From an uncultured archaeon (GTDB lineage Archaea; Thermoplasmatota; Thermoplasmata; Thermoplasmatales; Thermoplasmataceae): 64,000 nucleotides of DNA. Position numbers and translations under genes: made by a program. The stretch spans positions 2,016,001 through 2,080,000 of the forward strand of contig CP009479.1 of NCBI GenBank assembly GCA_000965745.1. The letters run 5' to 3'. Under the pieces are notes generated by a model. That model ran no database searches, was not told the DNA's origin, and saw nothing but the letters and a program-made list of their open reading frames with translations. Numbering within the stretch: the stretch's first letter is position 1; the number at the start of each line of letters is the position of its first letter. Positions 28,658-47,081 of the stretch are shown here, one piece after another.

Positions 28658-30205
28658 TTACTGCAATCTCTTGCCCATGTATGGGCCTACTCTCTCATAG
28701 CCCATTCTTCTGAAATATTCCCTTACTCCTATCCCGCTTATTACAAGGATTCTTCCCAGGCCATATTCTTCCCTGGTGATTCTTTCAGCCTCCGCCATAA
28801 GAAGGCCTCCGAACCCTTTATGCTGCCACCTGCCTCCAGCCTTGTCCCCTACCGGGACGACGCTGCCGAACACTTTTATCTCCCTGATCACGGAAGAATC
28901 TGCCATTTCTTTCCTGTGTGCGCTGTCAGAAGGGATTCTAAGCCTTACAAATCCCACTATCCTGTTATCCTGCGTTTCATATGAAATGAATATCTCTTTC
29001 CCGCCACTCGCTTCATAATTTCTCCGTCTCAGGGCTGGTTCCTCCCCCATCTCAGGTACACGGCCAATTTCACGGGACCTCATTTCCATAGTGTTGATAC
29101 CGAGTTCATTCAGCCTGTCATCAACCATGTTTCGTATGTCGCTCCTCTTGACCCCGGACTCGATAAACTTGACAGGAATGTCCCTCTGCATCCTCTGCAC
29201 TCTGATCCAGGGAGGCATATTCTTCATGAAATAGGTAATGAGATCCACGGCGCTATCAGTATCCAGCGGCATGTATTTCCCCTGCTTCCACATCCTGTAT
29301 ATCGCTGTGCCCTTGACAACCAGCGTTGGGTAAATCTTCAGCATGTCGGGCCTGTAGGCGGGATCCTTGATCATAAGGTCGAAGCTTTTCTTGTCATCTT
29401 CAATTGAGGCTCCAGGCATCCCCGGCATCAGATGATACACCATCTTCAGGCCCGCGTCCCTTGAGAGCTGCGTAGACTTGACAATCTCTGCTATGCCATG
29501 TCCCCGCCCATTCTTCCTCAATATCCTCTCTGATATATTCTGGACTCCAAGCTCAACTTTTGTTGCGCCATATCTCAGGGAAAGGTCAATCTCCTTCTCA
29601 AAAAACCAGTCGGGTTTCGTCTCTACTGTCAGACCGATGCATCTGCGTCCAGCACCCTCGTTCTGAAGGATGGACTCGTCAAGCGTGTTTGATATGCTCA
29701 TGTTCATGCCGTCCAGGCATCCCTTAACAAATGACTCCTGGTACTCCCTGGGCCTTGCAGTGAATGTTCCGCCCATTATTATCAAATCAACTTTGCTGGT
29801 ATCATGGCCTATGGTATCAAGCTGCTTCAGCCTGTTGAACACCTGGTTGTAGCCATCGTAGCCGTTGCTCCTCCCTCTCAGGGCGGCAGGCTCATATCCG
29901 GTGTAAGCTTGCGGGGAATTGTTTTCGAGCCCTCCCGGGCAGTATATGCACTTGCCGTGAGGGCACCTGTCCGGAGAGGTCATGGCGGCAACAACTGCAA
30001 CTCCGGATATTGTCCTTGTGGGTTTAATTCTAAGAAGATCAAGATACTGTTCATCGAATTCAGCAGAGTTAAGGATTTCAACATCACCGGGGATATAATC
30101 AAGATTATACCGCTTCGCCAGCTGCATTTTTCTGGACTGAAGCTGCTCCTTTGTCTTTACGTTCCCGGTCCTGATTTCGTGGACTATCTCTTCATAAAAG
30201 TCCAT
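28658..30205 (-). CDS. elp3: tRNA uridine(34) acetyltransferase Elp3
   Basis: RTISGVAVVA, CPHGKCIYCPGG, ETKPD, LKIYPTLV, QHKGFG, ISGIGVREY. Confidence 0.96.
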   Translation of the reverse strand: MDFYEEIVHEIRTGNVKTKEQLQSRKMQLAKRYNLDYIPGDVEILNSAEFDEQYLDLLRIKPTRTISGVAVVAAMTSPDRCPHGKCIYCPGGLENNSPQAYTGYEPAALRGRSNGYDGYNQVFNRLKQLDTIGHDTSKVDLIIMGGTFTARPREYQESFVKGCLDGMNMSISNTLDESILQNEGAGRRCIGLTVETKPDWFFEKEIDLSLRYGATKVELGVQNISERILRKNGRGHGIAEIVKSTQLSRDAGLKMVYHLMPGMPGASIEDDKKSFDLMIKDPAYRPDMLKIYPTLVVKGTAIYRMWKQGKYMPLDTDSAVDLITYFMKNMPPWIRVQRMQRDIPVKFIESGVKRSDIRNMVDDRLNELGINTMEMRSREIGRVPEMGEEPALRRRNYEASGGKEIFISYETQDNRIVGFVRLRIPSDSAHRKEMADSSVIREIKVFGSVVPVGDKAGGRWQHKGFGGLLMAEAERITREEYGLGRILVISGIGVREYFRRMGYERVGPYMGKRLQ

Positions 30206-30317
30206 CCAGGTTGGAATGCTTGAGATTATTAAACCCTTTTGAGAGGTCTGGATGAAATATGCTGTTGATCATGGAGGTGTGTGGAAGATTTTAATCAGCA
30301 GCAGCTTATCATGGAAC

Positions 30318-30806
30318 ATGGGGCTGGATATATCTGAAATTGAAGTGAATAAGCCTGATGACACGAACGTTATAGTGGGATATTCCCATTTTATCAAGAC
30401 TGTCGAAGACCTTACTGAAATTGTCAGGACCACTGCACCCGAAGCAAAGTTCTCTGTAACGTTTTCTGAGGCATCAGGCCCAAGGCTTGTCAGGTTTGAG
30501 GGAAATGACAGTGAACTAGTAGAATATGGGATTGAAAACATCAAAAGGATTGCATCTGGGCATACTTTCATGATTATTTTGAGGAATGCCTTCCCGATAA
30601 GCATACTCAACGCATTGAAACTGTGCCAGGAGGTCGGCACCATCTATGCTGCGACCGCGAACCCTTTGAAGGTGCTTGTTGCCAGGGGCGAGGATGGAAA
30701 TGGTGTTATAGGCGTTATTGATGGTGGATCCCCACTTGGTGTTGAAAGCGAGGATGACAAGAAGAAAAGAAGGCAGTTCCTGAGAGATATAGGTTACAAA
30801 GGATAG
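30318..30806 (+). CDS. Adenosine-specific kinase / DUF355 family protein
   Basis: SHFIKTVEDL, EASGPRLVR, GH.F, ATANP, GVIDG.SP, ends LRDIGYKG-TAG; start moved to ATG 30318. Confidence 0.9.
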   Translation: MGLDISEIEVNKPDDTNVIVGYSHFIKTVEDLTEIVRTTAPEAKFSVTFSEASGPRLVRFEGNDSELVEYGIENIKRIASGHTFMIILRNAFPISILNALKLCQEVGTIYAATANPLKVLVARGEDGNGVIGVIDGGSPLGVESEDDKKKRRQFLRDIGYKG

Positions 30807-30877
30807 GACCCGTAGTGTAATGGATATCATTCAGGCCTCCGGAGCCTGCGATCCGGGTTCGAATCCCGGCGGGTTCA
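30806..30877 (+). tRNA. tRNA-Arg(CCG)
   Basis: GGACCCG/CGGGTTC acceptor, CAGGC CTCCGGA GCCTG anticodon arm, CCGGG TTCGAAT CCCGG; G1 is the G of the upstream TAG stop. Confidence 0.93.
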
Positions 30878-46781: not shown

Positions 46782-47081
46782 TTGAACAAGAAGGAAATGC
46801 TCGGCATTGCGAAAGAAAGAATCAGTATTCTCCACAGAATCTCAATGGGAGAAAAAGACACTGATATTGCGTCAGCGAGAAAGCATGTGGAGATGATGGA
46901 GGCAATAGCGAAAAGAACGGACATAACCCTCCCTCCAGGAATAAAAAGATCATACTGCAAAAAATGCAAGACCCCATACGGAGCAGAAACCAGGCTCAGA
47001 ATCAAGAAAGGAAAAATCATGCTTTTATCATGCGGTTCCTGCGGTGACAGGAGAAGACTCGTTTATTCACTACACCGCTAA
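46782..47081 (+). CDS. rnp4: RNase P protein Rpp21
   Basis: IAKERI..L, KRSYCKKC, CGSCG..RR. Confidence 0.9.
   Translation: MNKKEMLGIAKERISILHRISMGEKDTDIASARKHVEMMEAIAKRTDITLPPGIKRSYCKKCKTPYGAETRLRIKKGKIMLLSCGSCGDRRRLVYSLHR

What the first reader, a model, noticed from the sequence alone, without database searches (positions are those of the whole stretch)
30318..30877. tRNA whose first base is the last base of a stop codon: possible archaeal tRNA punctuation
Seen: the DUF355 gene ends GGA-TAG (30804-30806) and G30806 is G1 of tRNA-Arg(CCG) (7-bp acceptor stem, then U8-A9). The other three tRNAs in the window each have a TATA-like box about 28-30 nt upstream; the matching position here is TCCTGAGAG, with only a weak GATATAG nearer. 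Established: RNase P cuts 5' of G1, and in animal mitochondria tRNA excision leaves UA/U ends that polyadenylation completes to UAA. Inference: if co-transcribed, tRNA maturation leaves an mRNA ending ...GGA-UA with no stop. It must then be translated before processing, rescued (aPelota) or repaired by A-tailing, which would couple this protein's output to tRNA processing.
Basis: partly seen in the sequence, partly recalled or inferred. Interest (0 to 1): 0.72.

Follow-up and report, generated by a model that had tools for sequence, protein, structure and literature searches.

The report
Archaeal tRNA sharing a stop codon
In a family of acid-loving archaea, a tRNA gene with no promoter of its own is fused to the tail of a protein gene, so cutting out the tRNA should clip the protein's stop codon; the messenger probably works only until that cut and is then destroyed, not repaired as in mitochondria.

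Summary
Observation confirmed: G30806 is both the last base of the DUF355 (PF04008) TAG and G1 of the genome's only tRNA-Arg(CCG). The fusion is family-wide: 79 of 81 Thermoplasmataceae genomes with DUF355 have it, 0 of 13 other-family genomes. The 1-nt overlap is not fixed (gaps -10 x5, -2 x15, -1 x28 including Thermoplasma acidophilum and Ferroplasma, 0 x23, +1 to +31 x8). No TATA precedes the tRNA except in the two genomes with a 19-31 nt spacer. RNA contigs from four metatranscriptome studies cross the junction in Ferroplasma, with flanks uncovered. Seven more tRNAs in this genome trail protein genes. In several pairs the stop lies 10-19 nt inside the tRNA, where A-tailing cannot restore it. 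Best reading (0.7): the mRNA is the pre-tRNA's leader, protein is made before RNase P cuts, and the cut mRNA decays, as for E. coli secG-leuU; the overlap reflects spacer erosion. Mitochondrial-style repair is unlikely (0.1). The scan noted similar abutments before (this genome's tRNA-Ser; DPANN archaea). New variant of a known kind.

The parts
30283..30295 (+). BRE/TATA-like promoter of the DUF355-tRNA unit (TTTTAAT at 30289-30295, 29 nt before the ATG, so a leaderless or near-leaderless transcript)
   Evidence: PWM score 6.2 bits; median 6.7 over 30 orthologs. The start site itself is inferred.
30318..30806 (+). DUF355 / 'adenosine-specific kinase' family gene (PF04008), 162 aa, stop TAG 30804-30806; contains no CGG codon (7 AGG, 2 AGA)
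30804..30806 (+). Stop codon whose third base is tRNA position 1; predicted RNase P cut between 30805 and 30806
   Evidence: The cut position is established RNase P biochemistry, not measured here.
30806..30877 (+). tRNA-Arg(CCG), sole copy in the genome, no encoded CCA, no TATA at canonical distance; acceptor stem kept by compensatory changes in relatives
28658..30205 (-). Divergent elp3 gene (radical SAM, ELP3_N); upstream neighbour in 18 of 29 family loci. The tRNA stays next to it in genomes where DUF355 was not found.
46818..47045 (+). Rpp21 (PF04032) match, an RNase P protein subunit; machinery only, not part of the transcript
   Evidence: G000:2062818-2063045

Best explanation
One transcript starts at the DUF355 promoter and runs through the ORF into tRNA-Arg(CCG), so the mRNA is the 5' leader of the pre-tRNA. 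Ribosomes translate the uncut transcript and terminate on the UAG that ends in G1. RNase P then cuts 5' of G1, releasing the tRNA and leaving an mRNA ending ...GGA-UA with no stop. That fragment is degraded (exosome), and ribosomes caught on it are rescued (aPelota, NFACT/RqcH-type factor). tRNA maturation thus ends the mRNA's life, as for E. coli secG-leuU. The overlap itself is spacer erosion: once a tRNA depends on an upstream gene's promoter, the spacer shrinks to about 0, and because the cut mRNA is discarded anyway nothing keeps the stop upstream of the cut. SHOWN: anatomy, family-wide linkage, spacer states, lack of TATA, presence of the genes named, RNA contigs across the junction in Ferroplasma. 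INFERRED: start site, RNase P cut in this context, order translation-then-cut, decay and rescue of the cut mRNA.
For: (1) 79 of 81 family genomes linked, 70 of them within -2..+1; 0 of 13 other-family genomes. (2) TATA core -7.7 here, the 9th percentile of ordinary ORF ends; linked and unlinked orthologs score alike (medians -1.6 and -1.4); only the +19 and +31 spacer genomes have a TATA at -31 (6.5, 7.6). Other pairs show the same split: gap <=20 no TATA, gap >=30 TATA. (3) RNA contigs of four mine-drainage metatranscriptome studies cross the Ferroplasma junction (1588-2133, 1516-1999, 1945-2034, 1531-2012; stop/G1 at 1983), with no Ferroplasma cover upstream of 1516 or beyond 2133. (4) Stops 10-19 nt inside the tRNA occur in five gene-tRNA pairs, including Gly(TCC) at -15 in this genome; cut plus poly(A) gives no stop there. 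(5) RNase P RNA, Rpp21, Rrp41/42, pelota and an NFACT-N protein are present. (6) Precedent: RNase P separates leuU from secG and the secG mRNA then has a half-life under 30 s (PMC2241853).
Against: No start-site or 3'-end data. The RNA evidence is assembled contigs from a relative: unstranded, possibly containing DNA, only two of four bridge by the tool's 31-nt rule, and the runs were found with this gene. The promoter PWM is imperfect: about a quarter of the other tRNAs in this genome score below 0 at canonical spacing and use longer leaders. The strong peak at -2..+1 also fits selection for intact or repairable ends. Kin are not independent, so the p-values overstate.
Confidence: 0.7

Rival explanations
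1. Mitochondrial-type punctuation with repair: RNase P makes the mRNA 3' end, untemplated purines complete UA to UAA/UAG, and the tailed mRNA is the main translated form.
For: For -1 and -2 overlaps, A-tailing does restore a stop in silico; 43 of the 48 overlapping DUF355 loci are of this type. The exosome that tails RNA in archaea is present.
Against: It fails for -10, -15 and -19 cases in five gene-tRNA pairs, including a whole genus for this very gene. Archaeal tails are heteropolymeric, exosome-made and found on truncated RNA (PMC1635327). The missing -3..-9 states are forced by the tRNA sequence, and the rarity of -10 can come from the conserved GYK-x C-terminus. No A-tailed loose end at the junction (contigs drop rare forms, so weak).
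Confidence: 0.1
2. The tRNA has its own cryptic promoter inside the ORF 3' end, and the overlap is only tight packing of two transcription units.
For: The Lys/Arg codon run before the F/L-L-R codons gives a BRE-like A-rich stretch at about -37, scoring 7-9 bits in a few AT-rich orthologs. Internal starts near ORF 3' ends are common in Thermococcus (PMC4247193).
Against: The same scores occur in unlinked orthologs (p 0.48 and 0.67); synonymous sites mostly break the TATA; the window scores -7.7 for the core. Where a TATA did appear, the spacer grew to 19-31 nt. Read-through mRNA would still contain the tRNA and be cleavable.
Confidence: 0.1
3. The coupling is selected as regulation: a ribosome terminating on the shared stop melts the acceptor stem and blocks RNase P, so translation state gates tRNA release and RNase P activity sets protein output.
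For: The geometry forces mutual exclusion, since a terminating ribosome covers roughly the first ten tRNA bases (own knowledge). The linkage is kept across 16 of the 17 genera that have the gene. Pop5 and Rpp30 were not found, and that pair speeds cleavage about 60-fold (PMC4919917).
Against: DUF355 has no CGG codons. An alternative ORF-tRNA helix seen in the window is not conserved (mean z +0.2 over 65 orthologs). Partner genes of such tRNAs are functionally unrelated. The link is lost or decoupled in some genera. Pop5 is also undetected in Aciduliprofundum, which lacks this fusion.
Confidence: 0.12

Closest known systems
E. coli secG-leuU mRNA-tRNA dicistron (Mohanty and Kushner, PMC2241853)
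   Same: A protein gene followed by a promoterless tRNA; one RNase P cut makes the tRNA 5' end; the upstream mRNA then decays rapidly.
   Different: secG keeps its stop plus 14 nt. Here the cut falls inside the stop codon (or upstream of it), making a true non-stop mRNA. It is archaeal, family-wide and repeated at several loci, and the RNase P lacks detectable Pop5/Rpp30.
tRNA punctuation in metazoan mitochondria (Ojala 1981, as reviewed in PMC4394434)
   Same: A tRNA abuts or overlaps an mRNA end with no spacer, and RNase P cleavage defines the mRNA 3' end.
   Different: There the cut product is the functional mRNA and polyadenylation completes the stop (own knowledge). Here the functional form is probably the uncut precursor, many overlaps are not repairable, and the unit is a 560-nt dicistron, not a genome-length transcript.
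Archaeal tRNAs inside protein operons (rpoN-tRNA-Pro, own knowledge; T. kodakarensis tRNA-Lys in the 5' UTR of TK0306, PMC4247193; N. equitans tRNA-Val/sRNA8, PMC3491384)
   Same: A tRNA co-transcribed with another gene and released by tRNA-processing nucleases; rpoN-tRNA-Pro(GGG) is present here at +1.
   Different: The two read papers describe a tRNA upstream of its partner (release at the tRNA 3' end), with no loss of a stop codon.
DUF355 / PF04008 family (TA1353, PDB 1RLH; PAE2307, PDB 2JB7)
   Same: The protein is a full-length, ordinary member.
   Different: Fusion with a tRNA gene was seen only in Thermoplasmataceae among the genomes searched.

Membership tests
mRNA-tRNA dicistron (secG-leuU type) | tRNA directly downstream of a protein gene on the same strand | tested here: met
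mRNA-tRNA dicistron (secG-leuU type) | tRNA has no promoter of its own | tested here: met
   By sequence score only: TATA core -7.7; no excess over unlinked orthologs
mRNA-tRNA dicistron (secG-leuU type) | A single transcript spans both genes | tested here: inconclusive
   RNA contigs of four studies cross the junction in Ferroplasma with bare flanks; supportive, but contigs cannot prove one transcript
mRNA-tRNA dicistron (secG-leuU type) | RNase P makes the separating cut and the mRNA then decays | not testable with these tools
   RNase P RNA and Rpp21 present, no HARP-length match; cleavage and decay not measured
Mitochondrial tRNA punctuation with poly(A)-completed stops | tRNA abuts or overlaps the mRNA end | tested here: met
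   Gap -2..+1 in 70 of 79 linked genomes
Mitochondrial tRNA punctuation with poly(A)-completed stops | The cut always leaves U or UA in frame, so A-tailing restores the stop | tested here: not met
   Met for -1 and -2; not met for -10, -15, -19 in five gene-tRNA pairs
Mitochondrial tRNA punctuation with poly(A)-completed stops | A stable homopolymeric poly(A) tail on the functional, processed mRNA | not testable with these tools
   Only the exosome route is known in archaea (PMC1635327; Rrp41 present); no read-level data
DUF355 / PF04008 | Full-length profile match above the curated cut-off | tested here: met
   226.6 bits, profile 1-154 of 154; 1RLH E 2.3e-66
Functional tRNA-Arg(CCG) | Cloverleaf with paired acceptor stem, kept by compensatory change | tested here: met
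   7/7 pairs in 28 of 29 orthologs, with A1-U72, A7-U66 and U5-A68 variants

The most novel reading that the evidence does not exclude
Thermoplasmataceae use tRNA maturation as a built-in mRNA off-switch. A slow RNase P lacking Pop5/Rpp30 leaves mRNA-tRNA precursors alive long enough to be translated; the terminating ribosome and RNase P compete for the same few bases; each cut yields a programmed non-stop mRNA for aPelota/RqcH. Several genes, including the replication factor C small subunit in Ferroplasma, would be controlled this way.
Probability: 0.2. Interest if true: 0.75.

Novelty: new variant of a known kind. Interest (0 to 1): 0.5.

Why it matters
Each mature tRNA-Arg(CCG) would cost one mRNA its stop codon, giving defined, chromosomally encoded non-stop mRNAs in an archaeon. 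To my knowledge the natural substrates of archaeal Pelota and RqcH are poorly defined. The identical -1 overlap exists in cultured Thermoplasma acidophilum, Ferroplasma acidiphilum and Picrophilus, and natural controls exist (0, +1, -10, promoter regained), so the order of translation and tRNA processing is directly testable. It also shows how spacer-free, mitochondrion-like tRNA punctuation can arise in a free-living cell, and it points at an RNase P with an unusual subunit set. I did not find it described in the papers searched (10 searches; open-access library only).

Tried and rejected
(1) Exact 1-nt overlap as an invariant: rejected, nine spacer states, at least 8 overlap switches and 12 state changes on a weakly resolved 29-taxon tree. 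(2) Internal promoter selected in the ORF end: no difference between linked and unlinked orthologs. (3) A conserved alternative helix between the ORF end and the tRNA D/anticodon arm: seen in the window's minimum-energy fold, but no better than synonymous recodings across 65 orthologs (mean z +0.2). (4) Codon-sensing attenuation: no CGG codons in the gene. (5) HARP as alternative enzyme: only short weak PIN matches. (6) Loss of Pop5/Rpp30 as the cause: also undetected in Aciduliprofundum and other Thermoplasmata, so at most permissive, and the genes may simply be too diverged to detect. (7) search for related loci in genome contigs gave one irrelevant locus. (8) The sigma-70 and terminator scan is not informative for archaea. 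(9) Depth 45 at the junction against 54 in the ORF body (run X5) fits a mostly uncut RNA, but contig depth cannot rank parts of a gene, so it is not counted. (10) Apparent abutments at Ala(GGC) and Val(TAC) in this genome, and Lys(CTT) in Aciduliprofundum, are short spurious ORFs and were excluded. (11) Two extra DUF355 copies in G069 and G109 look like binning contamination and were left out of the counts. (12) No paper describing this architecture was found.

Full report
1. Observation. The window is part of a complete 2.23-Mb genome whose relatives identify as Thermoplasma, Ferroplasma, Picrophilus, Cuniculiplasma and Oxyplasma. The ORF 30318-30806 is a full-length DUF355/PF04008 gene ending GGA-TAG, with a C-terminus like that of solved homologues. 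tRNA-Arg(CCG) spans 30806-30877, is the only CCG reader among the genome's tRNA calls, has a fully paired acceptor stem and no encoded CCA. G30806 is shared.

2. Conservation. Among 103 family genomes, 81 gave a DUF355 match. In 79 of these the same tRNA follows at once. Distance from stop to G1: -10 in 5 (one genus; the ORF reads into the tRNA and stops at U8-A9-G10), -2 in 15 (Cuniculiplasma, whose tRNA has a compensated A1-U72 pair), -1 in 28, 0 in 23, +1 in 4, and one each at +3, +5, +19 and +31. The -1 group includes a 1,564,906-bp genome whose protein end matches 1RLH, which I take to be T. acidophilum, and F. acidiphilum and Picrophilus. The two unlinked genomes belong to one genus. None of 13 genomes from other families of the order is linked. 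The earliest-branching genus on the protein tree has -1, and overlap status changes at least 8 times on 29 taxa (backbone poorly resolved). So tight fusion is old and conserved, while the exact overlap is labile. In genera where DUF355 was not found, the tRNA still sits 90-190 nt from the start of the divergent elp3 gene, roughly where the DUF355 start lies in the window, which fits deletion of the ORF from between promoter and tRNA.

3. Promoters. A BRE-TATA matrix trained on tRNA upstream regions of three other genomes scores the DUF355 5' region at 6.2 bits (median 6.7 in 30 orthologs), 29 nt before the ATG, implying a leaderless transcript. Upstream of the tRNA the TATA core scores -7.7, against a median of 3.8 for the genome's other tRNAs. 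Linked and unlinked orthologs do not differ, and only the two genomes with 19- and 31-nt spacers have a TATA at -31. The matrix is imperfect, since some tRNAs use longer leaders, so this is strong but not final evidence.

4. Not a single case. Eight tRNAs in this genome trail a same-strand protein gene without a clear TATA at canonical spacing: Arg(CCG) -1; Gly(TCC) -15 after a 240-aa protein; Ser(GCT) 0 after a conserved 53-aa ORF; Trp +1 after eL41; Pro(GGG) +1 after rpoN; Thr(CGT) +4 after DUF1015; Met +14 after eS1; Ser(TGA) +21 after eL15. Across about 30 family loci each, Ser(GCT) is at 0 in 21; Gly(TCC) has 33 nt or more with a TATA in 24, but has collapsed to -15 in this genus and to -1 and +11 elsewhere; Thr(CGT) reaches -10 and -15. 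Censuses of complete genomes found four overlaps among 44 tRNAs in Ferroplasma, including -1 with the replication factor C small subunit and -19 with an alkyltransferase-endonuclease V fusion, three in Cuniculiplasma, none in T. volcanium (four at 0 to +4), and no credible one in Aciduliprofundum. Short gaps go with no TATA and long gaps with a TATA. The simplest history is loss of the tRNA promoter followed by erosion of the spacer until the tRNA or the protein's conserved end is reached.

5. RNA evidence. I used the Ferroplasma ortholog (same -1 overlap; stop and G1 at L011:1983). Contigs from four metatranscriptome studies cover the ORF and cross the junction: 1588-2133, 1516-1999, 1945-2034 and 1531-2012. 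No Ferroplasma-like contig covers the flanks. An 835-nt contig of another species with a gap-0-type junction extends 488 nt upstream of its tRNA match. This supports co-transcription. It is unstranded contig evidence from a relative; two of the four meet the tool's bridging rule.

6. Fate of the mRNA. RNase P RNA and Rpp21 are present; Pop5, Rpp30 and HARP were not found. Missing subunits in T. acidophilum were noted before, and POP5-RPP30 raises the cleavage rate about 60-fold (PMC4919917), so slow cleavage is plausible but untested, and Pop5 is undetected across the order. A cut at G1 leaves UA here. A-tailing would restore a stop for -1 and -2, but not for the -10, -15 and -19 cases, so those proteins cannot depend on repair. 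Archaeal tails are heteropolymeric exosome products on truncated RNA (PMC1635327). Exosome core, pelota and an NFACT-N protein are encoded. In E. coli secG-leuU, RNase P cleavage is followed by mRNA decay within 30 s (PMC2241853). Hence the best model (0.7): translate the precursor, cut, discard. Rivals: selected regulatory gating (0.12), poly(A) repair (0.1), internal promoter (0.1). Two specific regulatory hooks failed: a conserved alternative helix and CGG codons.

7. Comparison and novelty. It works like secG-leuU and looks like mitochondrial punctuation, but it fails the latter's defining repair test. What is new is that the RNase P site lies within or upstream of the stop codon, family-wide and at several unrelated genes, in free-living, culturable archaea. 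No description was found in the papers searched. Earlier scan notes, unchecked unless stated, reported the Ser(GCT) abutment in this genome (confirmed here) and a stop borrowed from a tRNA in a DPANN archaeon. Verdict: new variant of a known kind, interest 0.5.

Noticed in passing
L035:626-787 (G000:1993925-1994086): Conserved 53-aa acidic protein with no Pfam or NCBIfam match above cut-off, found in 40 of 41 family genomes (60-100% identity); its stop abuts tRNA-Ser(GCT) G1 exactly in 21 of 30 loci.
   Followed up: partly
L032:297-1019 (G000:121996-122718): 240-aa family-wide protein of unknown function; in this genus it reads 15 nt into tRNA-Gly(TCC) (ends AGVV), while most other genera keep a 33-130 nt spacer with a TATA.
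   Followed up: partly
L184 (Ferroplasma acidiphilum, G005:1665687): The replication factor C small subunit stop TAG shares its G with tRNA-Ala(CGC) G1: a second, independent -1 overlap, on a core replication gene.
   Followed up: partly
G000, G005, G027, G032, G041 (whole genomes): RNase P RNA (checked in G000) and Rpp21 present, but Pop5 and Rpp30 not found with Pfam models; Pop5 not found in 8 of 8 genomes of the order sampled.
   Followed up: partly
L020, L022, L363-L392 (Cuniculiplasma genus): tRNA-Arg(CCG) begins with A1-U72 instead of G1-C72; the A comes from the TAG stop, and position 72 changed to compensate.
   Followed up: partly
L033:302-406, minus strand (G000:227901-228005): eL41 appears as a 35-aa ORF with a conserved N-terminal extension and TTG start; followed by intron-bearing tRNA-Trp at -1..+1 in 11 of 30 loci.
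   Followed up: partly
window 28658-30205 and 30318-30877: elp3 is head-to-head with the DUF355-tRNA unit in 18 of 29 family loci, and stays head-to-head with the tRNA where DUF355 was not found.
   Followed up: partly
G000:1307298-1307447, minus strand: tRNA-Asn(GTT) and tRNA-Met(CAT) in tandem with about one base between them.
   Followed up: no
G000:1873080-1873182: ARAGORN calls tRNA-Asn with a 30-nt intron; it begins with C1 and no other tRNA-Tyr is called, so it is probably a mis-called intron-bearing tRNA-Tyr.
   Followed up: no
G000:503815-505021, minus strand: The pelota gene is followed 82 nt later by tRNA-Glu(TTC), which has its own TATA; same order in T. volcanium.
   Followed up: no
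L234 (Cuniculiplasma, G032:537994): The DUF1015 ORF runs 38 nt into tRNA-Thr(CGT), the deepest overlap seen.
   Followed up: no
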